A stretch of 64,000 nucleotides of DNA from a virus (IMGVR_UViG_3300031088_000735); one strand, 5' to 3'; shown: positions 6,675 to 62,242, counted from the first letter of the stretch. Notes: generated by a model not told the origin, from the letters alone. Numbers and translations are program-made.

Positions 6675-8519
6675 ATGAATTTGAAAGAAAGTTTAAGAGC
6701 CATAGAGAAAGCTACTAGTCGTGTGGTTGATACAGGTTGGGATAGTGTTTATGGAGAACGTTTAAATTACAATGAAATGTACTTTATACCCCATTTTAAA
6801 AATAATAAAGCCAATAGAAGAATGTCACAAATACCTTTGTTGGCAGATACGATTGCTAAATTATCCAATTATGTTGAAACTATAAAAAATACTGATATTC
6901 ATGCATTGACAACAGTAGACGCAATTAATCTATATGGTTCACATGTATACCCGACTGAGATGGAAAGACAGAACGTTACTAAAAGAACATCTCTCGACTT
7001 TGAATTAAATCATGCATGGCTTGGTTTTTACTCGGCTGAACTTAATGGTTCTCGTGAATTTGATGACGACATGTCAGATGATCTCGAAGATCAAGTTATC
7101 GCCATTAATCGCATGGCTGAAAAACTTGAACAGCAACATATCAACATTAATAAGTTTTTAATGTTTAACTACACAGTGACTAATCAGTTAGCTATTTCAT
7201 TGCAACATGAAGATGATAGAGCTTACGTTGCGGAAGCCGCTATCAATTACATTACCCACAACCTTCCAGACATCGAAGATTTTAAATCTTTGTATGCAGA
7301 CTATGTGGCTGCGAATGACAAATTTTTAACTGATGTTAAAGCTGAACTTGTTAAAATCAACCCTGATATATTTGTTACTAATGCTGAATTGTTTATCTCA
7401 GCCTTAGAGAAGAGCACTGGTACTAATGCAGTTGAAGGCTTCTTGATTGAAAAAATGTTGACGGACGAGGCTGTTATTACCTCAGTTGATTTTACTGCAG
7501 GACAAGCTATTAATAAGGCTATTCTTTTTGATGATGCCAGTATTGCTTATAAACAAGATGGTCAATACCATACATTCAAAGACAACCAAAGTCTTGATAA
7601 CTTCATGTTTACGCTCAACCATAGTGCTCTTTCTTACATATTAAGAAAAAAGCCAACTACTATTCCTTTTTTCAAGGAAAAATTAATAGAAGATAAACAT
7701 TACGCTAACGCTATCAGTGCGGCTACATCGTTTATTGATAATTACACTGTTTTGAAACAATATAACTATGACCTCAATTCTTTCAAAGATAAGAGTTTTG
7801 AGGCTATTGATGACGAAATTAACCATGTTGTTGACAGAAATAAAATTAAACAATATGCATTTAGTATTCTTAGTTCTAAAAATAAACACTTATTTAATGA
7901 TGAAACAGAGTCTTATTTCAAAGCATTGTTTGACAACAATGTAACGACATCACAACTGCAAACGTTTGTAGGCAAAAAACTGGCTGCTTTGCATTCTAAC
8001 GAAGATGTTATTATGATGTTAAATGGAATTCGTAACCATTTCGATGGATTTACTCAGGAAGCGTTAACGTTGAAATTAGAATCTTTTGGTATTAAGAAAT
8101 TACATGATCAAGATAATGTGGTTACATTTGCTGTTGCTAATTACACTCAATGTGAAGCGTTAGGGTCAACTTCTTGGTGTATTGTTCGAGATCAAGACTA
8201 CTATGATCAGTATGTGACAGACCATCGTAATATCCAGTATATGATGTATGACTTTAATAAACCATCTACTGACATCAATTCTATGATTGGCTTCACTGTA
8301 GAGCGTTCTGGGGCTATTTATGCCGAACATTTGAAAAATGATGATGCGATTTATTCTCATAGCAAAGATGAACAATTGACCCATATACAAACCAACACTA
8401 TTTATCAAAACAGAAAGAACCATAAATTATCAGAAGAAACCCTATTCGCAATGGAAGAGTCTCTGGGCGTTCAGAATGTTGTTAAACCAACTAAACCTTT
8501 AAAAATGAGAACTATATGA
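6675..8519 (+). CDS. large hypothetical protein A1 (GxTSWCI domain, possibly PcfJ-like), basic tail ..KPLKMRTI*
   Basis: 614 aa; clear paralog of 11043..12875 (LRKKPTTI, FDNNVTTSQLQTFVGKK, LGxTSWCIVRD). Confidence 0.85.
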   Translation: MNLKESLRAIEKATSRVVDTGWDSVYGERLNYNEMYFIPHFKNNKANRRMSQIPLLADTIAKLSNYVETIKNTDIHALTTVDAINLYGSHVYPTEMERQNVTKRTSLDFELNHAWLGFYSAELNGSREFDDDMSDDLEDQVIAINRMAEKLEQQHININKFLMFNYTVTNQLAISLQHEDDRAYVAEAAINYITHNLPDIEDFKSLYADYVAANDKFLTDVKAELVKINPDIFVTNAELFISALEKSTGTNAVEGFLIEKMLTDEAVITSVDFTAGQAINKAILFDDASIAYKQDGQYHTFKDNQSLDNFMFTLNHSALSYILRKKPTTIPFFKEKLIEDKHYANAISAATSFIDNYTVLKQYNYDLNSFKDKSFEAIDDEINHVVDRNKIKQYAFSILSSKNKHLFNDETESYFKALFDNNVTTSQLQTFVGKKLAALHSNEDVIMMLNGIRNHFDGFTQEALTLKLESFGIKKLHDQDNVVTFAVANYTQCEALGSTSWCIVRDQDYYDQYVTDHRNIQYMMYDFNKPSTDINSMIGFTVERSGAIYAEHLKNDDAIYSHSKDEQLTHIQTNTIYQNRKNHKLSEETLFAMEESLGVQNVVKPTKPLKMRTI

Positions 8520-9952
8520 AAAAAGCAATGTCAGAAGATTTTTTAACTTTACTTGATGATTTCAAATTATCCAACAATATTACGGATACTAACTTTGACT
8601 ATTATGCAACCTTGAAATTCTGTAAATCTACATTTTTGAATGACTTTTATGATATTTCTCTTGTAAAAACAGACTCTCAACAATATCCTATTTTATTACA
8701 AATGAATGGTAAAGCACTTGTTTTTAAAATGAAAGATGCTAATTTTGCTGGCATTTCCGATGATGAAGTCAAGAATTTTGTACCTTTTTTAACAAATAAA
8801 GACTATTCTCATGTCAGTCATCTAAACACTATACTGAAAGAGAGCACATCTTTTAAATCGTTTGTTGATAATGTTAATTCTGTATTTGGTGAAGGCTTTG
8901 ACTTACATGCACTTGGTGGTGTTTCTAAAGACATCATGGCTTTTAAGGTTTCTAACACACTTAATACATTAATCAATAAATTAAAAGACGTATATATAAA
9001 AGATTATGAGATTAGCTATTTATTACAAGTATTAGAGGACGAATTGTCTTCTGGTATATTTGTTGGTCGTGGTATTGATGTCTCACAAATGTCACATGAT
9101 TTTAAACGTTATGTGAAGCCCAATTCGAATGAATTTTCAGGTGATCCAGAAACTTATTATGATGTTTTAATGGAAAAATATTATAAACACTTAGATCAAT
9201 ATTTTGATTTGTTTAAATTTCAGCAAACGTTAAAAACAGGTGTTATGCTTAATTCAAAAACGGATGATCAACTGTTAGACACAGCTTTGTTAAATGAATT
9301 TATTACTGTCGTTAAGGCGAGACAACCAACTTGGTTTCAGTCGTTTGATGAATCAATGATTCACTCAGTGACCGATGATAACACCATTAGAGCCGCTGGA
9401 ATACCTTTGATTGACAAGACTGCTGACTTTGATTTGATTAATCCTAGATTGTGTTTGGCAAGTGCTTATCCAACCAGTATAGATGGCTACACTAATGTTT
9501 CAGAAAGTTTTATGAAAGCAGATACCAACTCAGTCCATTTGTATGGCGATAATGTGTTCTTTAAACCTTATTACCATAATCTTATTATCAATGAAAAGGA
9601 AAATCTAAGGGTTTGCACTTATGTTCATTCTGAACTGGGACTGTCTTTAAGTGATGATATGAAATTCAGTTTCCTTTTACCTGTATTAGATTACTTAGAA
9701 AAAAACAAAATCATTCTTGATTTAGATGACAGCAATGAGTATTACTTAACTCTCTTGAATTATATAAAGAAAGAAGACCTATCAGCACTTATAAAAGAAA
9801 AATACCCTAATCTTATCTTTTTAAATTCTGACACAGACCTTAAGAAGTCTATTGAAATTAGCCATGCAACATCCTTCAAAGAAGCGTTGAAAATCTATAA
9901 GCAAGATGATAAACCAACTCCCAAAAACACTACATTAAAAAACGCCTTGTAA
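8516..9952 (+). CDS. hypothetical protein B1, translationally coupled to A1
   Basis: ATGA stop/start overlap; paralog of 12872..14278 (TDDNxIRAAGIPL, VHLYGDNVFFKxYYHNL). Confidence 0.85.
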   Translation: MKKAMSEDFLTLLDDFKLSNNITDTNFDYYATLKFCKSTFLNDFYDISLVKTDSQQYPILLQMNGKALVFKMKDANFAGISDDEVKNFVPFLTNKDYSHVSHLNTILKESTSFKSFVDNVNSVFGEGFDLHALGGVSKDIMAFKVSNTLNTLINKLKDVYIKDYEISYLLQVLEDELSSGIFVGRGIDVSQMSHDFKRYVKPNSNEFSGDPETYYDVLMEKYYKHLDQYFDLFKFQQTLKTGVMLNSKTDDQLLDTALLNEFITVVKARQPTWFQSFDESMIHSVTDDNTIRAAGIPLIDKTADFDLINPRLCLASAYPTSIDGYTNVSESFMKADTNSVHLYGDNVFFKPYYHNLIINEKENLRVCTYVHSELGLSLSDDMKFSFLLPVLDYLEKNKIILDLDDSNEYYLTLLNYIKKEDLSALIKEKYPNLIFLNSDTDLKKSIEISHATSFKEALKIYKQDDKPTPKNTTLKNAL

Positions 9953-10030
9953 GGTGTTTTTTTGTGGCTAACATTATTGTTTTATGATATAATATCAACA
10001 ATATTTTATTTATCTACAGGTGATGGTGTT

Positions 10031-10993
10031 ATGATTAACGACTATATCGAAAAGATTCAATATATTGCTGCTGATCGCAAGCGGGGTGATACCTTTCTTG
10101 TGGATAACGTCGTTTTTCGATTGCCACATCTATATCCTCGACAATTGGCAGATTACCGTGATAACCCATCTATGGTTATTGACGCATTTATTCAACCTAT
10201 TCTTGAAAGCAATCCTAGTGAATTTATAGTCGTTTCTGATTTTGAGAGCCATAATTCTGTTTATACGCTTTACACCGTTAAAACTGAGAACATTTCAAAA
10301 GTTTTTACTCAATTTGCTGATGAACAATTTAGAATGGCTCAACGAAATGATTTAATTGTTCGCACCGAGCTTTCTAATTTCTTTGAGATTTTTTTTGAAG
10401 AATTTTTTGTCGCTGACGATTTCAAAGAAAAGTTTTTAACTGACTTAAAGACAAAAAGTGTATCGACTGATTTTCGTGTTTCTGGATCTCATGCACCTAA
10501 TAGATTTATTGAACGGTCTAATTTGCATTTAGTTGACATTAATATTAAATTTACACCAGAACATGAAGCTTTTTTGCGAAAGATGTTGAATATTAAAACG
10601 ACATTCAAACTCTTATATCGTGGCTATGTCTCATTTAATGGCGACTTTACTGTTCGTGAGTTTAAATTGAAATTGTTTTCAGATAACGATCTTCATCGTG
10701 AACATCTTGAATACTATCGTTCATCACCAACATATGGTTTCATTAGGTCTACAAAAAAAGCAAATCCTTATTCGTATGAGCCAAATCCAAAAGTGTTTTT
10801 CACGCTTTTTACAAAAGAAGATTATAAATTTACCTTGTATAAACTTTTGAAGTTTCACAATGATTCTGACACACTTGAAAAATACACTACCATGTTTCCT
10901 GAACTGTATACACCATCAGCGTATGATTTTGCAAATCTATCTCTGGAAGAATGGGATACTCGTTTCATACTTCAAGACATGATTGATATTTAA
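10031..10993 (+). CDS. hypothetical protein with PE..SAYDF module and M-tag (..RFILQDMIDI*)
   Basis: AGGTG/GGTG SD before ATG 10031. Confidence 0.8.
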   Translation: MINDYIEKIQYIAADRKRGDTFLVDNVVFRLPHLYPRQLADYRDNPSMVIDAFIQPILESNPSEFIVVSDFESHNSVYTLYTVKTENISKVFTQFADEQFRMAQRNDLIVRTELSNFFEIFFEEFFVADDFKEKFLTDLKTKSVSTDFRVSGSHAPNRFIERSNLHLVDINIKFTPEHEAFLRKMLNIKTTFKLLYRGYVSFNGDFTVREFKLKLFSDNDLHREHLEYYRSSPTYGFIRSTKKANPYSYEPNPKVFFTLFTKEDYKFTLYKLLKFHNDSDTLEKYTTMFPELYTPSAYDFANLSLEEWDTRFILQDMIDI

Positions 10994-11042
10994 TAATTAT
11001 ATTTGTGTGGTATACTGTTAATATCTAATTACACTATACAAC

Positions 11043-12875
11043 ATGAATTTAAAAGACGGTTTAAGAAGTATTGAATCATTAAACAACATTGTTCACTATG
11101 AATCACTACATGGTGAAAATGATGTTCGTTTGAATTACAATGAGATGACGTTTATACCTTATCTCAGTAAGAACAAAGGAAACAAATACATTAGAAATAA
11201 AAATGCTCTTAAAGATGCTGTTGATACATTGGCTGGGTTCGTTTCTATTATTAAAGAAACCGATTTGAATACATTGACGACTATACCAGATGTTGTGAAA
11301 TTTTCAGCTCGTTTTTCAAGAGGTTTATTTGATCTTGATGGTATTTCTGCACACACTAAAACACAAGCAGAATTTAATGGTGCATGGATAGACTTTTATG
11401 CTTATGGTATTAAAACTGAAAATAAAAATCCACATATTATAAATAAAATTGAAGACCAACGTGAACAAATCAATCATGTTGGACAAGAATTAGATAAAAA
11501 ATACAAAGAACTTAGCAACTTTCTTTTGTTTCACTACACATTACTTCAACAACTACCAAAGTCTTTGTTACATGAAGAAGATCGTGCTTATGTCGTTAAA
11601 AGTATCAATACATACACTGAGCAAATGCCTTCTATTCAAGAATTGGCTTCATTGCAACAACAATATCAAGATTTAAACAAACAGTTTCTGGTTGATGTTA
11701 AACAGCATATTGTTGATATTGCTCCTGACACTTTTGTTTCAAAAGCTGACGCTTTCATATTGAAGGAACAAGAACACCAGACTAATAATACTGTTGAAAA
11801 CTTCTTGAATGCTAAACTGTTGGAAGAAGACGTAAAAGTTGCCATTGAATTCACGGCAGCTCAAAAAATTCAAAAAGTCTTTTTATTTGATGATAGGAGT
11901 ATCGCCTATAAAAGAAACAATGAGTATCATACGATTAAGGATTCGACTGCAATATCTATGTTTATTAATGAACTTCATCATGAAAGTTTATCATTTATCC
12001 TTAGAAAAAAACCAACGACAATTGCGTTCTTTCAAAATAAACTAAAAGAAGATGGTGGATACTCAAATGCCATTAAAGCAGCGACTTCTTTTGTTGAACA
12101 TTCACAAGTATTAAAACAATATAACTTCGATTTAAATACCTTAAAAGACAAAGGATTTGAAGCAATTGATGACACTATAAACAACTTGGTTTATAAGAAT
12201 AAAGTTAAACAGTTCGCTTTCAGTATTTTGAGTGCTAAATATAAACACCATTTCAACAGTGAAACTGAGCCTTATTTTAAAGATCTCTTTGACAACAATG
12301 TGACAACTTCTCAGTTGCAGACGTTTGTGGGCAAAAAAATCGCCGCTTTGAAATCAAATGAAGATGTCATCAAAATGATTAATGGCATGCTGGATCACTT
12401 TAATGGGTTTACACAAGAAGCCTTGTCTGAAAAACTTCAATCCTTGGGGATCGAGAAGATACATGATGCGAATAACGCTGTCAGTTTCGAAGTAACCACC
12501 TATGAGCAATGTAAGGCGTTAGGTACCACGTCTTGGTGTATTGTGCGTGATGAAGACTATTTTAATCAGTATGTGCATGAAAGAGGAAATCGCCAGTATA
12601 TCATCTATGACTTCAATAAATTATCGACAGACATTCAATCCATGATTGGTTTCACTGTAGAAGAAAATGGAGACATTTATGCTGAACACTGGAAAAACGA
12701 CGACTCTATTAGTCGTTACGGTAAATCAGACACCTTAACTAACATCCAGACTAATACAATTTATAATAACCAATCACGTCATTCTTTATCAGAAGAAAAG
12801 ATTGTTGAGATGGAAGACATTCTTAATATCAAAGATGTCAAAAAGAATAAACCTTTAAAAATGAGAGTGGCATGA
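11043..12875 (+). CDS. large hypothetical protein A2, basic tail ..KPLKMRVA*
   Basis: 610 aa; paralog of 6675..8519. Confidence 0.85.
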   Translation: MNLKDGLRSIESLNNIVHYESLHGENDVRLNYNEMTFIPYLSKNKGNKYIRNKNALKDAVDTLAGFVSIIKETDLNTLTTIPDVVKFSARFSRGLFDLDGISAHTKTQAEFNGAWIDFYAYGIKTENKNPHIINKIEDQREQINHVGQELDKKYKELSNFLLFHYTLLQQLPKSLLHEEDRAYVVKSINTYTEQMPSIQELASLQQQYQDLNKQFLVDVKQHIVDIAPDTFVSKADAFILKEQEHQTNNTVENFLNAKLLEEDVKVAIEFTAAQKIQKVFLFDDRSIAYKRNNEYHTIKDSTAISMFINELHHESLSFILRKKPTTIAFFQNKLKEDGGYSNAIKAATSFVEHSQVLKQYNFDLNTLKDKGFEAIDDTINNLVYKNKVKQFAFSILSAKYKHHFNSETEPYFKDLFDNNVTTSQLQTFVGKKIAALKSNEDVIKMINGMLDHFNGFTQEALSEKLQSLGIEKIHDANNAVSFEVTTYEQCKALGTTSWCIVRDEDYFNQYVHERGNRQYIIYDFNKLSTDIQSMIGFTVEENGDIYAEHWKNDDSISRYGKSDTLTNIQTNTIYNNQSRHSLSEEKIVEMEDILNIKDVKKNKPLKMRVA

Positions 12876-14278
12876 AGAAAGCAACCAGTAAAGAGTTCTT
12901 GGACTTATTAAATGATTTCAAAGTGAAAAACAATATTGAAGGCAACATCTTCGATTATTATGCGACGTTTAAATTTTATAAATCAATATTCTTGAATGAA
13001 TTTTATGATATGTCGTTGATTAAAACGGACTCTATTGATCACCCAGTCATGATTAAACATTCGAAGCATAGTTTACTTGAGCTGGGAAATGAGCGTTTTA
13101 CAACCTTGGGTGATAATTACATCGACTACATACCAATAGTAAAAGATAAACATGTTGACCATATAAAATACATGTTTAATGCTTTGCAAAACAGCAATAG
13201 TTTTAAAAGTTTTGTTAATGCCGCTATTGCTGATACCCATAATGCTCATTCTAGTTTCATTTCGAACAAAGACAACATTTATCCTCACCCTGATTTTAGA
13301 AATGAAAAAACAATAAAAATGGTAGATGCTTTTTTAGGTTTAAAGAATGCGGTAGAAGAAGAATTAAAAAGAGATAAAAGCAATGAAACTGCACTCCTTT
13401 ATCATCTTGATAATTTAATTGAACAAATGCCCCGTGACAGTTTAAGGAAATATCAAATTGTCAGTGTTTTTAGAGGACGTGAAACCAATGATCCAGAGCT
13501 TGTTATGGATAAACTTTATGAACAATTTGAACCTCATTTTCAATTATTCAAAATTGAAGAAATGTTGAACTATGGTCGATTGTTGAATGCGGCTACTGAA
13601 AATGCAACGATTGATACACCCTTGCTTAACCAGTTTATTGAAACATTAAAACACTCCCACCCAGAGTGGTTTGTGACCTTTGATGAATCGTTAACTCACG
13701 CTATGACAGATGACAACGCTATTAGAGCGGCTGGTATTCCTTTGCTTGAAATGACGGCTGATTTTGACTTAATTGATCCTAAATCGTTTATGGCGACGGC
13801 CTATCCTAGTTATACTGATGGATTCTCCCATCTCTCAAACCGTTTTAAAGAATCTGAATCAAATGCTGTTCATTTGTATGGAGATAATGTCTTTTTTAAG
13901 GCTTACTATCACAACCTTCATATTGAACAAGACAATGGCCTTACTTACTGTAAAAGTGTGGATTCTGATGTTGCTTTCTGTTTAAAAGATTCCGATAGAA
14001 AAGACTTTATCACACCTGTCTTGGATTACTTGAATAAAAACGAAATCGTTCTTAATCTTTCAAGAGACAGCACCCTTTACCATTACATTAAAAAAGATGA
14101 CTTAGCAGTATTAGTGAAAAGCGAATACCCTAATCTTGTTTTTATTAATGATGAACTTGGTTATAAGAAGTTAGGGGCTATATTTGAAGCCAAAACCTAT
14201 AAGGAAGCACTTTCAATTTATCAGGGTACTGATGAGCAAGCTGTTGCTAAACGGATAAAAAATAAAGCAAGTATTTAA
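12872..14278 (+). CDS. hypothetical protein B2, translationally coupled to A2
   Basis: ATGA overlap; paralog of 8516..9952; ends KRIKNKASI. Confidence 0.85.
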   Translation: MKKATSKEFLDLLNDFKVKNNIEGNIFDYYATFKFYKSIFLNEFYDMSLIKTDSIDHPVMIKHSKHSLLELGNERFTTLGDNYIDYIPIVKDKHVDHIKYMFNALQNSNSFKSFVNAAIADTHNAHSSFISNKDNIYPHPDFRNEKTIKMVDAFLGLKNAVEEELKRDKSNETALLYHLDNLIEQMPRDSLRKYQIVSVFRGRETNDPELVMDKLYEQFEPHFQLFKIEEMLNYGRLLNAATENATIDTPLLNQFIETLKHSHPEWFVTFDESLTHAMTDDNAIRAAGIPLLEMTADFDLIDPKSFMATAYPSYTDGFSHLSNRFKESESNAVHLYGDNVFFKAYYHNLHIEQDNGLTYCKSVDSDVAFCLKDSDRKDFITPVLDYLNKNEIVLNLSRDSTLYHYIKKDDLAVLVKSEYPNLVFINDELGYKKLGAIFEAKTYKEALSIYQGTDEQAVAKRIKNKASI

Positions 14279-37303: not shown

Positions 37304-37424
37304 GGTCATCACAAGTTAGGGGAAACCATAACTTAATGGTTGTAAAAAAGATGTGGATTATTTTAAGATTCTCATAATCTGTATCGAGGGGCGTAGGAGA
37401 AATTTTACGCTTTGTCTGTTCCAC

Positions 37425-37497
37425 AGAGGTGTATATCAGTCGGTAGATAATCTCTCTAGCAGAGAGAAGGTCGCGGGTTCAAGTCCCGTCACTGATG
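37425..37497 (+). tRNA. tRNA-like gene, anticodon AGC (Ala), irregular acceptor stem
   Basis: D-stem TATC/GATA with GG in loop; anticodon stem TCTCT/AGAGA, loop CT-AGC-AG; T-arm GCGGG-TTCAAGT-CCCGT; acceptor has two purine mismatches; no encoded CCA. Confidence 0.7.
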
Positions 37498-37525
37498 TGG
37501 ATTTAGGCCGAGAGGTCAGGACGTA

Positions 37526-37599
37526 TACGGTGTATATCAGCGGCCTAGATAATTTCTCTAATCGAGAAAAGGACGTAGGTTCAAATCCTACCACTGTAT
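37526..37599 (+). tRNA. tRNA-like gene, anticodon AAT (Ile), unusual C37
   Basis: Acceptor TACGGTG/CACTGTA; D-stem TATC/GATA; anticodon stem TTTCT/AGAAA, loop CT-AAT-CG; T-arm GTAGG-TTCAAAT-CCTAC; no encoded CCA. Confidence 0.75.
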
Positions 37600-37614
37600 T
37601 GCAAGAACCAAAAA

Positions 37615-58869: not shown

Positions 58870-58961
58870 TCATTACAAAAAGGTTGAAAATTGACTTGTT
58901 TTTTGCTATAATAGCCTCATTGAAAAGCGGTATTGATGCTTGTTAAATAGAGGTTTCGCTT

Positions 58962-59189
58962 ATGTGTAGCAGAACTGACGCTGATGGTTTTCTGCCTTGT
59001 CCTTTTTGTGGTGGCACTGTTATCCATATGGAAACGTGGAGTCGCCAACGTGGTGAGTGGCAAGGAAAAGTAACCAATGAATGTTGTGGTTATACCTTCA
59101 TTGTTTTGAATGTCTATAGCTCGACCAAGAAAGAAGTTATCGATTTCTACAAAAAAATGTGGAACAAAAGGCCAGAAAAAGCTTGCTAA
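58962..59189 (+). CDS. Lar-family restriction-alleviation-like zinc-binding protein
   Basis: LPCPFCGG...ECCG...WNKR. Confidence 0.7.
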   Translation: MCSRTDADGFLPCPFCGGTVIHMETWSRQRGEWQGKVTNECCGYTFIVLNVYSSTKKEVIDFYKKMWNKRPEKAC

Positions 59190-59211
59190 GCGGTTCGAAG
59201 TTTGATAGAAT
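59183..59211 (+). promoter_or_regulatory. promoter of a ~390-nt non-coding transcript
   Basis: TTGCTA-17-TAGAAT with upstream TG. Confidence 0.7.
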
Positions 59212-59217
59212 AGCGAC

Positions 59218-59400
59218 ATTGAAACACGGCAGCAAACAGAATTTGGAACCTGCGTAAAAGTGGGTTGGATGGCAGCGGTGTCGCGGGCAAGCCATCAATG
59301 AGACATGAGAGCAATCTCTGTCTCGCGGTAGAATGGGAATTATGGCCCAAGAGGCTATGATTAAAACGGCTGGGTGAGTCGGCCCTTTCTACTAAACCTA
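59218..59400 (+). ncRNA. GC-rich multi-hairpin RNA of unknown class
   Basis: AACCTGC/GTGGGTT, GATGGC/GCCATC, GAGACA-T-GAGA-GCAA-TCTC-TGTCTC (GNRA loop), GTAGAA/TTCTAC enclosing TGGG/CCCA and GGCTG/CGGCC; no ORF. Confidence 0.6.
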
Positions 59401-59413
59401 ATTTAAAAGTTAT

Positions 59414-59569
59414 ACAGTGGTAGCTCAGTGGATGTTTAAAGAAAGCCGCGACTTACAAGGAGATTCTAGACTCTTTTCTTGACGGTTTGGCCTATGTTAA
59501 ACTAGCTTTCGACAGCAGAGCGTGCCCTAATAAGGCAAGGCGTTGGTTCGATTCCAGCCTACTGTACCA
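59414..59569 (+). tRNA. tRNA-like gene, anticodon AAT (Ile), encoded CCA, ~85-nt insertion in the D-loop
   Basis: Acceptor ACAGTGG/CTACTGT + A + CCA; D-stem GCTC 59423-59426 / GAGC 59518-59521; anticodon arm TGCC-CTAATAA-GGCA; T-arm GTTGG-TTCGATT-CCAGC. Confidence 0.8.
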
Positions 59570-59577
59570 ACAATCGA

Positions 59578-59610
59578 AAACAACTTGTTGAAAGACAGGT
59601 TGTTTTTTTT
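59578..59610 (+). terminator. terminator after the non-coding transcript
   Basis: AAACAACTTGTT-GAAA-GACAGGTTGTTT followed by a T-run. Confidence 0.75.
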
Positions 59611-59702
59611 TGCCTAAAAACTATGGAATATAATCAAAAAATACTTTCTTTGCTTACCGATTTTTGGTATAATGAACCTTCAATATTTGGAGATACTACG
59701 AA

Positions 59703-59900
59703 ATGATGACCAATACGACTTCCCAAATCAAAGTTGTCAAAAATGAAGGCGACTTCAAACGTGCTTTGAACGCTGGCTTCGCTGTCAACCTCTTCGAATG
59801 TTCTGAAACCGAAATGTGGTTGGTTCTGCCGATGGAAAATACTGACATGAAGAAACATGCTGAACATCATGGTTTTGAACCAGTAGCTATCATTCAGTAA
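59703..59900 (+). CDS. small hypothetical protein
   Basis: GGAG SD; own promoter. Confidence 0.7.
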   Translation: MMTNTTSQIKVVKNEGDFKRALNAGFAVNLFECSETEMWLVLPMENTDMKKHAEHHGFEPVAIIQ

Positions 59901-60782: not shown

Positions 60783-61454
60783 ATGATCAACATGATCGAA
60801 TTAGTTAAAGAAAAGTTTGAAAATGCTCGACTTTTCGACAATACGAATAACGATGCGATTGTTCCCATCAATTTCAATATTGATACCACTTCCAAGATTA
60901 TGTTTGTTGTCGGATCGAATGCCAGCGGCAAAAGCCTTGTGGGCCGTATCGTAGAATTGATTTCCAAGGAAGCTGGCGTCCCTAAGCGTTCCTGTTCGAT
61001 GCGAAATCGCACGTCTGGTGAGCTGGGTCAGCGTATGGTCTTTGGTACAGAAGACGACGACAGCACTGGCAACAATAGCGTTCACACCACAGTCATTGGT
61101 CTGAAATCGACCGTAGAATCTAATAATGCTGTTTTGATCTTGGATGAGCCAGATATCGGCCTTGCTGATGAGTATTCTGCTGCTTTGGGTCAATACATCG
61201 CTCAAAATGTCAATGAACACCATGAAAAACTTGGCCTCATTGTCCTTATCACTCATTCCCATAAGTTGATTGATATGGCTATCAATGAACTGACAGTGCC
61301 ATTTTCTACCGTTTTTGTAGGGGATGATAAAACGACTTTTGAAGAGTGGCGTGAACGTCCATTCAAAGCGGCCAGCATTGAAGAGTTGTTAGCTCTCAAA
61401 AACAAAAGCCATGAAACTTGGGGCAGGGTGCAAAAACTGCTCAATGGAAAATGA
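60783..61454 (+). CDS. stand-alone ABC-class (AAA_21-like) ATPase
   Basis: Walker A GSNASGKS, Walker B LILDEPDIGL, H-loop LITHS; degenerate signature (STGN). Confidence 0.8.
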   Translation: MINMIELVKEKFENARLFDNTNNDAIVPINFNIDTTSKIMFVVGSNASGKSLVGRIVELISKEAGVPKRSCSMRNRTSGELGQRMVFGTEDDDSTGNNSVHTTVIGLKSTVESNNAVLILDEPDIGLADEYSAALGQYIAQNVNEHHEKLGLIVLITHSHKLIDMAINELTVPFSTVFVGDDKTTFEEWRERPFKAASIEELLALKNKSHETWGRVQKLLNGK

Positions 61455-61831: not shown

Positions 61832-61893
61832 ATTGAAGGCTTAAAACGTCATAAACCTGTTGACATCATGGCGTTTTAAAAGTAATATAGTCT

Positions 61894-61992
61894 CAACAGC
61901 GTTACATCCTCTCATGCTTTTACAGCATTGACGTTGTAGCCATTATAGCTTAAAACACCTAAACCCTTATTGGACGCTCTAAGGGTTTTTTT
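61894..61992 (+). ncRNA. candidate small RNA 1
   Basis: TTGACA-17-TAATAT promoter, no ORF, ATGCT/AGCAT hairpin, terminator AAACCCTTA..TAAGGGTTT. Confidence 0.45.
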
Positions 61993-62051
61993 GTGTCTAA
62001 AATTCAATAAAAGTGCTTGCTATTTTTTATTGGTTATTCTATACTAGTCTT

Positions 62052-62150
62052 AATCGAGCCAGCTCCCATGTTGTTAACTAGATTTTCAATACGTGTTGGC
62101 CTTCTGCAACAGCAAACCAAACCCTTATAGGACGCTTTAAGGGTTTTTTT
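62052..62150 (+). ncRNA. candidate small RNA 2
   Basis: TTGCTA-17-TATACT promoter, GCCAGC/GTTGGC long hairpin, terminator nearly identical to that of sRNA 1. Confidence 0.45.
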
Positions 62151-62242
62151 GTGCCTAAAATTTGATAAATTAATTGTTGTTATTTTTCATTTGTTGTATA
62201 ATAGCTTCAATCTAATCCATCCACGTTTTGAGGAATTTAATC

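What the first reader, a model, noticed from the sequence alone, without database searches (positions are those of the whole stretch)
59414..59569. tRNA-Ile(AAT)-like gene with a ~85-nt structured insertion inside the D-loop
Seen: a complete cloverleaf with encoded CCA, but 91 nt (59427-59517) lie between the two D-stem strands. The loop starts canonically (AGTGG) and ends in A; the insert folds back through TGTT/GACA, GAAAGC/GCTTTC and an inner CAAGGA/TTCTTG hairpin. The junction (4-bp helix, 3-nt GCA on one strand, 4-nt TAAA bulge on the other) resembles the relaxed bulge-helix-loop geometry of archaeal D-loop introns, although cutting there would leave a 13-nt D-loop, longer than normal. 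The anticodon stem has only 4 bp. Established: bacterial tRNA introns are group I/II introns, typically near the anticodon and much longer, and bacteria lack the archaeal splicing endonuclease. Inference: a new small spliced intron class, or an unspliced tRNA-mimic carrying an extra domain (decoy for anticodon nucleases or tRNA-sensing defences, or a protein scaffold). Standard tRNA scanners would probably miss it.
Basis: partly seen in the sequence, partly recalled or inferred. Interest (0 to 1): 0.86.

Follow-up and report, generated by a model that had tools for sequence, protein, structure and literature searches.

The report
Phage tRNA-shaped RNA with D-loop arm
A huge uncultured phage carries a conserved gene for a 156-base RNA that has every hallmark of an isoleucine tRNA but holds an 85-base conserved extra domain inside its D-loop; it is most likely kept as a tRNA look-alike rather than spliced, and no such RNA turned up in Rfam or in the papers I searched.

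Summary
At 59414-59569 (+) a complete cloverleaf with encoded CCA has 91 nt between its two D-stem strands. ARAGORN and Rfam miss it intact. ARAGORN calls tRNA-Ile(AAT) once the insert is deleted.

It is a real gene. The same interrupted RNA (156-157 nt) lies at the same place in 12 other metagenome contigs, giving 7 distinct sequences.
- tRNA body: five pairs change on both sides, including the tertiary 15:48 pair (0 of 500 shuffles reach this).
- Insert: more conserved than the neighbouring genes, with a central hairpin, an invariant loop TTCTAGAC and an invariant 14-nt tract ending ACAGCA.
- No ribozyme, splicing enzyme or spliced read was found.
- The anticodon arm is non-canonical and its loop drifts (CTAATAA, CTAATCG, a 6-nt loop).

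Best reading (about 0.45): an unspliced tRNA-framed small RNA. It is co-transcribed with a conserved leader RNA and probably cut out by RNase P, and the D-loop arm is its working part. Its role as bait or adaptor in phage-host conflict is inferred. Splicing remains possible (about 0.15).

The scan noted this family before on other DNA (e1-1859317, e1-5429487, e1-5432620).

The parts
59183..59211 (+). sigma-70-like promoter (TTGCTA, 17 nt, TAGAAT, TG-extended) of the non-coding unit
   Evidence: Consensus scan. The GATAGAAT box is kept in L001, L003, L015, L020 and L039. Transcription itself is not shown.
59218..59413 (+). structured leader RNA. It ends in module M (about 59330-59400): a hairpin, GATTAAAAC, then a hairpin with a GGGTG loop
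   Evidence: Conserved in all relatives. Both M hairpins show compensatory changes, and M is duplicated in L001/L003. M also sits directly before a normal tRNA-Pro in L004. It occurs 3-4 times per genome in four IMG/VR huge-phage records, with 0 hits for the control pattern.
59414..59431 (+). 5' part of the tRNA frame: acceptor 5' strand 59414-20, T8 A9, D-stem 5' strand 59423-26, D-loop A14 G15 T16 G18 G19 (59427-31)
   Evidence: Pair 6:67 is G.U, A-U or G-C in different relatives, and position 15 covaries with position 48.
59432..59516 (+). 85-nt D-loop insert between G19 and A21. It has a variable 5' linker; helix P2 (59444-48 with 59488-92; the weaker 59450-53 with 59484-87); hairpin P3 (59456-63 with 59474-81) with loop 59464-73 holding the invariant TTCTAGAC; a variable 3' linker; and an invariant tract AGCTTTCGACAGCA, 59504-59517, whose last base is A21, one past the insert's end
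   Evidence: Folds of three haplotypes share P2 and P3. The pairs are kept in all sequences, but only by one-sided changes (plus inspection). The insert is 79-88% identical between clades, against 70-82% for the neighbouring ORFs and 68% for the spacer after the terminator.
59517..59569 (+). 3' part of the tRNA frame: A21, D-stem 3' strand 59518-21, G 59522, anticodon stem 59523-26/59534-37, loop 59527-33 (anticodon AAT 59529-31), variable loop AGGC 59538-41, T arm 59542-58, acceptor 3' strand 59559-65, A73, CCA
   Evidence: Compensatory changes occur in two anticodon-stem pairs, one T-stem pair, pair 6:67 and pair 15:48.
59576..59612 (+). intrinsic terminator. CGAAA at 59575-79 is invariant and complementary to TTTCG at 59507-11
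   Evidence: Terminator scan. The region is 93% identical between window and L020. The TTTCG/CGAAA pairing is a possibility only, because neither strand varies.

Best explanation
This is a functional, tRNA-derived small RNA whose mature form keeps the D-loop insert: a 'tRNA-framed' RNA rather than an intron-containing tRNA gene.

Shown: it is a conserved gene with promoter-like and terminator-like signals around it. The RNA keeps a complete tRNA core (acceptor stem, D-stem, G18 G19, T-loop, the 15:48 pair, A73 and CCA) through compensatory evolution. The 85-nt insert is itself under purifying selection.

Inferred: the unit 59218-59612 is transcribed as one RNA with a structured leader. Host RNase P cuts at 59414, and 3' trimming stops at the encoded CCA. 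The insert sits in the variable pocket between G19 and A21, where ordinary tRNAs already tolerate extra bases, so it can project from the elbow as an extra arm without breaking the L-shape. The tRNA frame supplies processing, stability and recognition by tRNA-binding proteins. The arm (a hairpin with the invariant loop TTCTAGAC, plus the invariant single-stranded tract ending ACAGCA) is the effector or docking part.

Most speculative step: the RNA acts as a tRNA-Ile look-alike, either as bait for a tRNA-targeting host enzyme or as an adaptor for a phage protein, in an accessory and possibly anti-defence region, and does not decode on the ribosome.
For: 1. ARAGORN calls tRNA-Ile(aat) only after the insert is deleted, in the window and in all relatives with a 7-nt loop.
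2. Thirteen contigs, 11 from different samples and 2 (L011, L018) from different runs whose samples I did not check, carry it in conserved gene order, as 7 distinct sequences of 156-157 nt.
3. Cloverleaf plus 15:48 pair: 99.3% of cells are paired and 5 pairs change on both sides. No shuffle of 500 reaches this, and slid controls give at most 1 such pair.
4. The distal 5' strand, not the internal ACAGCAG look-alike, covaries with the 3' acceptor strand, so the whole 156-nt molecule is the selected fold.
5. The insert is more conserved than neighbouring coding DNA and the spacer. Its loop and 3' tract are invariant.
6. With the tRNA pairs enforced, the predicted fold is only 2.3-5.6 kcal/mol above the free minimum, and P2 and P3 form in all three haplotypes.
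7. The anticodon arm is a poor decoder: 4 Watson-Crick pairs plus G.A, and loop variants CTAATAA, CTAATCG (pyrimidine at 37, C32-G38 pairable) and a 6-nt TGATAA.
8. No Rfam ribozyme or intron family matches at E up to 10.
9. Context: a weak Lar-like match sits upstream, an Acb1-like gene downstream, and an Rnl1 RNA ligase at the matching place in L016.
Against: Nothing shows what the mature RNA looks like. The only RNA-library data are 151-nt contigs, and they cannot separate RNA from DNA.

The insert helices have no two-sided compensatory change. One substitution in L020 breaks a P2 pair, so the arm's fold is not proven.

The anticodon AAT is kept in 6 of 7 variants and matches ATT, the phage's dominant Ile codon (62% of Ile codons). 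That would also suit a real decoder. Phage tRNAs are known to carry odd anticodon loops, proposed to escape nucleases (PMC10264068).

No partner protein and no target was identified.
Confidence: 0.45

Rival explanations
1. It is a true tRNA-Ile(AAU) gene with a protein-dependent intron, or with a cleavage module that leaves a nicked 'split' tRNA. A phage or host nuclease removes the D-loop insert, a ligase such as Rnl1 may rejoin the halves, and the product decodes ATT.
For: The exons alone make a tRNA that ARAGORN accepts. AAT is a Watson-Crick match to the dominant Ile codon ATT, which makes up 397 of 642 Ile codons. A relative carries a T4-type RNA ligase 1 gene at the matching place. A kinase-like AAA_33 gene and a 2H-type (Acb1-like) phosphoesterase gene lie nearby in relatives.
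Against: The junction helices needed for a bulge-helix-bulge site are not conserved. No splicing endonuclease, RtcB or Rnl gene was found in the 64-kb window. The insert is conserved like a working part. The anticodon stem is one pair short, and 2 of 7 variants have C37 G38 and one a 6-nt loop. The window already has an uninterrupted tRNA-Ile(AAT) at 37526-37599. No read joins the exons, which is weak evidence.
Confidence: 0.15
2. It is an expanded but working tRNA. The insert stays in place, and the molecule is still charged by IleRS and used on the ribosome, as class II tRNAs carry a long variable arm.
For: All core and elbow nucleotides, A73 and CCA are kept. The anticodon is kept and matches codon use. 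The insertion point is the D-loop pocket that tolerates extra bases (established tRNA structure; my own knowledge).
Against: An 85-nt domain beside the D-stem would probably clash with neighbouring tRNAs and helix 69 on the ribosome (inference). Loss of A37 in some variants removes the t6A37 site used by bacterial IleRS (my own knowledge). The 4-bp anticodon stem and the 6-nt loop in L015 also argue against it.
Confidence: 0.1
3. It belongs to the 'stem plus ACAGCA handle' family of phage tRNA-mimic RNAs that earlier notes of this scan link to Ro60-like proteins. TTTCG (59507-11), ACAGCA, the tRNA 3' part and CGAAA (59575-79) would form the handle, and a Ro60-like ring protein would be the partner.
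For: ACAGCA lies in the most conserved tract of the RNA. It is directly preceded by TTTCG, whose complement CGAAA follows the CCA by 4-5 variable bases and is itself invariant. Earlier notes describe handles that interrupt tRNAs (e1-1842169, e1-5371223). Those notes are unchecked leads.
Against: Neither strand varies, so the stem cannot be tested. It would cross the acceptor stem as a pseudoknot, or exist only in the precursor. The motif reads ACAGCAG, not ACAGCAA. Rfam YrlA does not match. The bacterial Y-RNA motif GNCGAA(N)G (PMC4201824) is absent by inspection. No TROVE or DUF2828 protein was found among the ORFs scanned. The two other ACAGCA-bearing units in the window do not fold as handles.
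Confidence: 0.12
4. It is a decaying tRNA gene disrupted by an inert or selfish insertion and merely carried along.
For: Scanners reject it. One relative has a 6-nt anticodon loop.
Against: Compensatory changes keep every tRNA helix and the 15:48 pair across clades whose flanking proteins are only 60-80% identical. The insert is single-copy in all DNA held, has no ORF, and is conserved above background.
Confidence: 0.04

Closest known systems
YrlA-type bacterial and phage Y RNAs (Rfam RF02553; Chen et al. 2014, PMC4201824)
   Same: A non-coding RNA that mimics the tRNA core (D and T arms, elbow contacts). Compensatory G15:C48 / A15:U48 changes serve as evidence, and it is expected to be a substrate of tRNA enzymes such as RNase P.
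   Different: YrlA has its ends in a Ro60-binding stem where the anticodon arm would be, a closed 'acceptor' hairpin, and a neighbouring Ro60 gene. This RNA has a normal open acceptor stem with CCA and a full anticodon arm, and its extra domain lies in the D-loop. There is no RF02553 match and no Ro60 gene nearby.
Archaeal non-canonical tRNA introns in the D-loop, cut at bulge-helix-bulge motifs (e.g. Aeropyrum pernix, PMC3241643; listed, paper not read)
   Same: An insertion outside the anticodon loop of an otherwise complete tRNA gene.
   Different: Those introns are defined by a 3-4-3 bulge-helix-bulge at the junction and by the EndA endonuclease (my own knowledge). Here the junction helix is not conserved, the host is bacterial-type, and the insert sequence is conserved like a functional domain.
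Bacterial and phage group I introns in tRNA genes
   Same: An interrupted tRNA gene in a bacterial-type genome.
   Different: Those introns are about 200 nt or longer, lie in the anticodon loop and have a catalytic core (my own knowledge). This insert is 85 nt, lies in the D-loop and matches no intron or ribozyme family.
tmRNA
   Same: A tRNA-like frame (acceptor, T arm, CCA, RNase P processing) carrying a large internal domain.
   Different: tmRNA lacks an anticodon arm, carries a tag ORF and pseudoknots, and its insertion replaces the anticodon arm. ARAGORN's tmRNA search finds nothing here.
Class II tRNAs (long variable arm), and the stable 'species 1/2' RNAs of the phage T4 tRNA cluster (my own recollection; no paper was found)
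   Same: An extra helical arm tolerated on a tRNA body, and phage-encoded stable RNAs of unknown role made with the tRNAs.
   Different: The arm here is in the D-loop, not the variable region, and is about four times longer than a class II arm. I could not check sequence relatedness to the T4 RNAs.

Membership tests
Canonical elongator tRNA (Rfam RF00005) | 7-bp acceptor stem, discriminator base, T arm with TTCRA loop | tested here: met
   Pairs are kept in all 7 sequences, with both-sided changes at 6:67 and in one T-stem pair.
Canonical elongator tRNA (Rfam RF00005) | D-arm with a loop of about 7-11 nt carrying A14, R15, G18 G19 and A21 | tested here: not met
   The conserved bases are present, but the loop is 91 nt. 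It is 90-91 nt in the relatives.
Canonical elongator tRNA (Rfam RF00005) | 5-bp anticodon stem and 7-nt loop with U33 and a purine at 37 | tested here: not met
   There are 4 Watson-Crick pairs plus G.A in every member. The loop is CTAATAA in 4, CTAATCG (C37) in 2, and a 6-nt TGATAA in 1 of the 7 distinct sequences.
Canonical elongator tRNA (Rfam RF00005) | Scores above the family threshold or is called by a tRNA finder | tested here: not met
   Rfam gives 21.4 bits against a cut-off of 29, and only for the 3' part. ARAGORN finds no gene in the intact window or in L001, L003 and L015.
Canonical elongator tRNA (Rfam RF00005) | Tertiary Levitt pair 15:48 | tested here: met
   G15:C48 in the window and A15:U48 in the six other sequences.
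Archaeal-type bulge-helix-bulge tRNA intron | Conserved 4-bp helix flanked by two bulges at the exon-intron junctions | tested here: not met
   TGTT/GACA loses a pair in 4 of 7 sequences and GAAAGC/GCTTTC in 6 of 7, with no compensating change.
Archaeal-type bulge-helix-bulge tRNA intron | Splicing endonuclease (EndA) and an RNA ligase encoded by the host or element | tested here: inconclusive
   Thirty ORFs scanned with Pfam gave no such family. There is no Rnl1 in the window, but an Rnl1 gene lies at the matching place in L016. The rest of the genome and the host are not available.
Self-splicing group I/II intron or small self-cleaving ribozyme | Recognisable catalytic core | tested here: not met
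   No intron or ribozyme family matches at E up to 10 over 58900-59750, or up to 5 over the whole window. The insert is only 85 nt.
YrlA / Y RNA with Ro60 | Ro60-binding motif GNCGAA(N)G in a terminal stem, a match to RF02553, and a Ro60 gene nearby | tested here: not met
   The motif as defined in PMC4201824 is not present in 59218-59612 by inspection. RF02553 gives no hit. No TROVE, vWA or DUF2828 family appears in the scanned ORFs.
'ACAGCA-handle' phage RNAs (this scan's earlier notes; unpublished, unchecked) | Closing stem followed by ACAGCA(A), with a tRNA-like cargo, beside a Ro60-like gene | tested here: inconclusive
   ACAGCA (59512-17) with a possible TTTCG/CGAAA stem is present and invariant. 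There is no covariation, no family model and no Ro60-like gene. The DUF2828 search of relative G001 was blank, but the control genomes were blank too.
tmRNA | tRNA-like domain without an anticodon arm, plus a tag reading frame | tested here: not met
   ARAGORN's tmRNA search found nothing. An anticodon arm is present.

The most novel reading that the evidence does not exclude
The insert is a genuine intron that does not splice itself, or a processing module that yields a split tRNA. Proteins remove it (a nuclease plus an Rnl1-type ligase such as the one found at the matching place in relative L016), giving a working tRNA-Ile(AAU) tuned to the phage's dominant ATT codon. This would be the first protein-spliced tRNA intron of a bacterial virus, and it lies in the D-loop.
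Probability: 0.1. Interest if true: 0.9.

Novelty: new variant of a known kind. Interest (0 to 1): 0.62.

Why it matters
tRNA-shaped RNAs that are not ordinary decoders (tmRNA, YrlA, viral tRNA-like ends) each revealed a new use of the tRNA fold. This RNA has an unreported architecture: a full cloverleaf with CCA and a conserved 85-nt domain in the D-loop pocket. It is maintained in a clade of huge phages found in leaf-surface, soil and other metagenomes, and standard annotation cannot see it.

If the arm is retained, it is a natural version of the engineered 'tRNA scaffold' and a candidate player in the contest over tRNAs between phages and bacterial defence nucleases. If it is removed, bacterial viruses have a splicing route nobody has described.

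Either result can be tested with one Northern blot or a small-RNA library, once a host is found. It also shows that tRNA counts for huge phages are underestimates.

Tried and rejected
1. RNA evidence. Two run searches listed no strong RNA holder. Contigs of four runs were laid on the locus.
- 151-nt contigs of the L020-type relative in two RNA-labelled libraries cover leader-to-tRNA and 5' part-insert-3' part without a break.
- No joints were seen. One contig runs past the terminator, so it may be DNA or read-through.
- This is no evidence on expression or splicing either way.

2. Alternative D-armless mini-tRNA starting at the internal ACAGCAG (59512), which is how Rfam aligned it. Rejected: the 3' acceptor strand covaries with the distal 5' strand, and the internal copy gains mismatches in L003, L015 and L020.

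3. Outer insert helix (GTTTAA/TTAAAC in the window). Each haplotype pairs in a different register, so there is no common helix.

4. Micro-ORF in the insert (ATG at 59433, 16 codons). It is absent from the L001-type sequences, which have no ATG and an early stop.

5. The insert as a repeated mobile element. There is only one copy per locus in all DNA held. TTCTAGAC occurs once in the window.

6. Pattern scans.
- The exact 3' part and the insert core gave nothing in IMG/VR or in species genomes.
- A relaxed pattern gave two chance hits: L025, inside a Nocardioidaceae coding region, and L026, a 3' fragment of a tRNA-Leu gene beside a weak integrase match, probably an attachment site.

7. INPHARED phages: no DNA match. 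The ATPase neighbour has no relative in IMG/VR.

8. The two ACAGCA-bearing small units at 61888-62155 do not fold as stem-ACAGCA-cargo-stem.

9. IMG/VR huge phages that share the leader RNA (G001-G005) have no copy of the interrupted tRNA. In G001 the same leader is followed by about 300 nt of unrelated RNA.

10. Literature searches for D-loop introns, disrupted tRNAs or tRNA-like decoys in phages found no description of this architecture.

11. The whole-fold energy z-score of the intact RNA is not significant (-0.24). Thermodynamics alone neither supports nor rejects the structure.

Full report
**What is there.**
The stretch 59414-59569 (+) reads as a complete cloverleaf.
- Acceptor stem: 59414-20 pairs with 59559-65, followed by A73 and an encoded CCA.
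- D-stem: GCTC (59423-26) pairs with GAGC (59518-21).
- Anticodon arm: 59523-37, loop CTAATAA, anticodon AAT.
- Variable loop: four bases, AGGC.
- T arm: loop TTCGATT.

Between the two D-stem strands lie 91 nt. The first five (AGTGG) and the last (A) are the canonical D-loop bases A14 R15 Y16 G18 G19 ... A21. The real insertion is therefore 85 nt (59432-59516), in the variable pocket between G19 and A21.

ARAGORN finds two ordinary tRNAs in the window (37424-37498 Ala-AGC, 37525-37600 Ile-AAT) but not this one, even with its intron option. When about 80-90 nt of the D-loop are deleted in silico, it calls tRNA-Ile(aat). Rfam reaches only 21.4 bits (cut-off 29), by treating an internal ACAGCAG as the acceptor strand and skipping the D-arm.

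**It is a real, conserved gene.**
The window is a protein-dark, phage-like contig.
- Of 30 ORFs scanned with Pfam, two passed the curated cut-off or came near it: an M17 peptidase and a weak Lar-like protein.
- One ORF matches virion-protein PHROGs.
- It has no DNA match in GenBank phages.
- It is found in leaf-surface, soil and other metagenomes.

I fetched related contigs through the neighbouring ATPase (60783-61454) and the 65-aa gene (59703-59900), and one more by a pattern scan. Twelve contigs carry the same interrupted RNA between the same genes: L001, L003, L007, L015, L017, L018 (cut), L019 and L020-L024. L015 comes from a 678-kb contig. Together with the window they give seven distinct sequences of 156-157 nt. 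The flanking proteins of these phages are only 60-86% identical to the window's.

**The tRNA body is under selection as a fold.**
On alignment A4, the cloverleaf plus the tertiary 15:48 pair has 99.3% of cells paired and five pairs with changes on both sides:
- 6:67 (G.U / A-U / G-C);
- two anticodon-stem pairs (C-G / U-A / U.G);
- one T-stem pair (U-A / C-G, with U.G and C.A intermediates);
- 15:48 (G:C in the window, A:U elsewhere).

No shuffle of 500 reaches these values, and sliding the partners gives at most one such pair. The sample is small, effectively four clades, so the numbers are indicative only. The direction is still clear: the 3' acceptor strand co-evolves with the distal 5' strand, across the insert. 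The internal ACAGCAG copy does not compensate and gains mismatches in L003, L015 and L020. G18 G19, T54 T55 C56, A58, U8, A14, A21, G26/A44, A73 and CCA are invariant.

**The insert is conserved but is not a recognisable intron.**
Window against L020:

| Segment | Identity |
|---|---|
| insert | 79% |
| tRNA parts | 89% |
| two downstream ORFs | 70-72% |
| spacer after the terminator | 68% |

Window against L001, the insert is 88% identical and the ORFs 76-82%.

Folding three haplotypes, alone or with the tRNA pairs enforced, gives the same centre:
- helix P2 (59444-48 with 59488-92);
- hairpin P3 (59456-63 with 59474-81), whose loop holds the invariant palindrome-containing TTCTAGAC.

The enforced cloverleaf-plus-arm fold is 2.3-5.6 kcal/mol above the free minimum. 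P2 and P3 stay paired in all sequences, but only through one-sided changes (G.U to G-C or A-U). One weak pair is broken in L020. The arm's structure is therefore plausible, not proven.

The outer part of the insert pairs in a different register in each clade. The last 14 nt before the D-stem (AGCTTTCGACAGCA) never change.

The relaxed bulge-helix-loop geometry is thus not a conserved feature. No intron or ribozyme family matches. At 85 nt the insert is shorter than the roughly 200 nt or more that, from my own knowledge, group I introns in tRNA genes measure.

**Is it a decoder?**
For:
- AAT is kept in six of seven variants (GAT in L015).
- It is the Watson-Crick partner of ATT, which is 62% of Ile codons in 26 window ORFs.
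- The neighbouring tRNA-Ala(AGC) likewise matches GCT, 50% of Ala codons.

Against:
- Every member has only four Watson-Crick pairs plus a G.A in the anticodon stem.
- Two variants have the loop CTAATCG, with a pyrimidine at 37 and a pairable C32-G38.
- L015 has a six-base loop.
- The window already has an uninterrupted tRNA-Ile(AAT).

Odd anticodon loops in phage tRNAs have been proposed as escapes from anticodon nucleases (PMC10264068), so this argument is not decisive.

**Expression.**
A promoter-like site (59183-59211) and a terminator (59576-59612) bracket a unit without ORFs. Both are conserved in relatives.

RNA-labelled libraries from two studies contain 151-nt contigs of the L020-type relative. 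They run unbroken from the leader into the tRNA and from the 5' part through the insert into the 3' part, and no joint was seen. One contig continues past the terminator, and contigs cannot separate RNA from contaminating DNA. I treat this as no evidence either way.

**The leader.**
The 195 nt upstream form a separate conserved RNA. Its last module (hairpin, GATTAAAAC, hairpin with a GGGTG loop) shows compensatory changes in both hairpins and is duplicated in L001 and L003.
- It stands directly before a normal tRNA-Pro in L004.
- It occurs three to four times per genome in IMG/VR huge phages, against none for the control pattern.
- There it is often followed at once by a terminator.
- In the 437-kb phage G001 the same promoter and leader sit at what looks like the same locus but are followed by about 300 nt of unrelated RNA.

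The leader is thus a constant module with variable downstream cargo, and the interrupted tRNA is the cargo in the window's clade.

**Leads from earlier notes of this scan.**
The same family was noted on other DNA:
- e1-1859317, followed up as a 'new structured RNA fused to a tRNA-like piece with a large extra arm';
- e1-5429487 and e1-5432620, first readers only.

Other notes describe phage tRNA-mimic RNAs built on a 'stem plus ACAGCA' handle next to Ro60-like genes. Here ACAGCA (59512-17) is preceded by TTTCG, whose complement CGAAA follows the CCA after four to five variable bases. Both are invariant.

I could not test this. There is no covariation, no model of that family and no Ro60-like gene in the ORFs scanned. 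Rfam YrlA and the published Y-RNA motif (PMC4201824) do not match. The two other ACAGCA-bearing units of the window do not fold that way. It stays a minority hypothesis.

**Verdict.**
The finding is real and unusual: a conserved, tRNA-derived RNA with a constrained 85-nt domain in its D-loop. The best-supported mechanism is that the domain is retained and the tRNA frame serves for processing, stability and recognition. The role in phage-host conflict is inference from context:
- a weak Lar-like match upstream;
- an Acb1-like gene downstream;
- Rnl1, CinA and a kinase-like gene in relatives.

Splicing by proteins is not excluded and would be the more remarkable outcome.

Noticed in passing
window 59218-59413; L004 1200-1293; L028-L033, L039-L050: The leader is an RNA family of its own. 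Its 3' module (hairpin, GATTAAAAC, hairpin with a GGGTG loop) covaries in both hairpins. It occurs 3-4 times per genome in IMG/VR huge phages. It precedes a terminator, a normal tRNA-Pro, the interrupted tRNA or other RNA. It has no Rfam match.
   Followed up: partly
window 37424-37600: Two tandem tRNAs have A34 anticodons (Ala-AGC and Ile-AAT) and C32-G38-pairable loops; the Ile one has C37. Their anticodons are Watson-Crick partners of the phage's most used Ala and Ile codons (GCT 50%, ATT 62%). This suggests either unmodified-A34 decoding or a phage- or host-supplied deaminase.
   Followed up: partly
L016 277-1398: In one relative, a T4-type RNA ligase 1 gene (Pfam RNA_lig_T4_1) lies where the window has the Lar-like gene, the RNA unit and two small genes. 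The contig starts just upstream, so the RNA could not be checked there.
   Followed up: no
L021, L022, L024 position 1: Three independent assemblies of the L020-type phage all break at the same base, inside the first hairpin of module M. This hints at a repeat or a strain-variable copy number of that module, as in the duplication in L001 and L003.
   Followed up: no
L039 1545-1830 (G001, 437-kb phage): The same promoter and leader are followed by about 300 nt of unrelated, ORF-free sequence up to a similar terminator. It may be a different RNA cargo. It has no Rfam match.
   Followed up: partly
L004 1480-1535: A lone T-arm-like hairpin (TCAGG TTCGATT CCTGA) followed by ACCA stands 120 nt after tRNA-Pro, without an acceptor stem. 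It may be a tRNA fragment or a mini tRNA-like element.
   Followed up: no
L011 and L013 7024-8187: An IS605-type OrfB/TnpB gene is inserted in two of four otherwise collinear relatives of the ATPase locus.
   Followed up: no
window 6675-14278: Two consecutive gene pairs of similar sizes (614+478 aa and 610+468 aa) have no Pfam or PHROG match. It looks like a tandem duplication of an unknown two-gene module, but the two pairs were not compared with each other.
   Followed up: no
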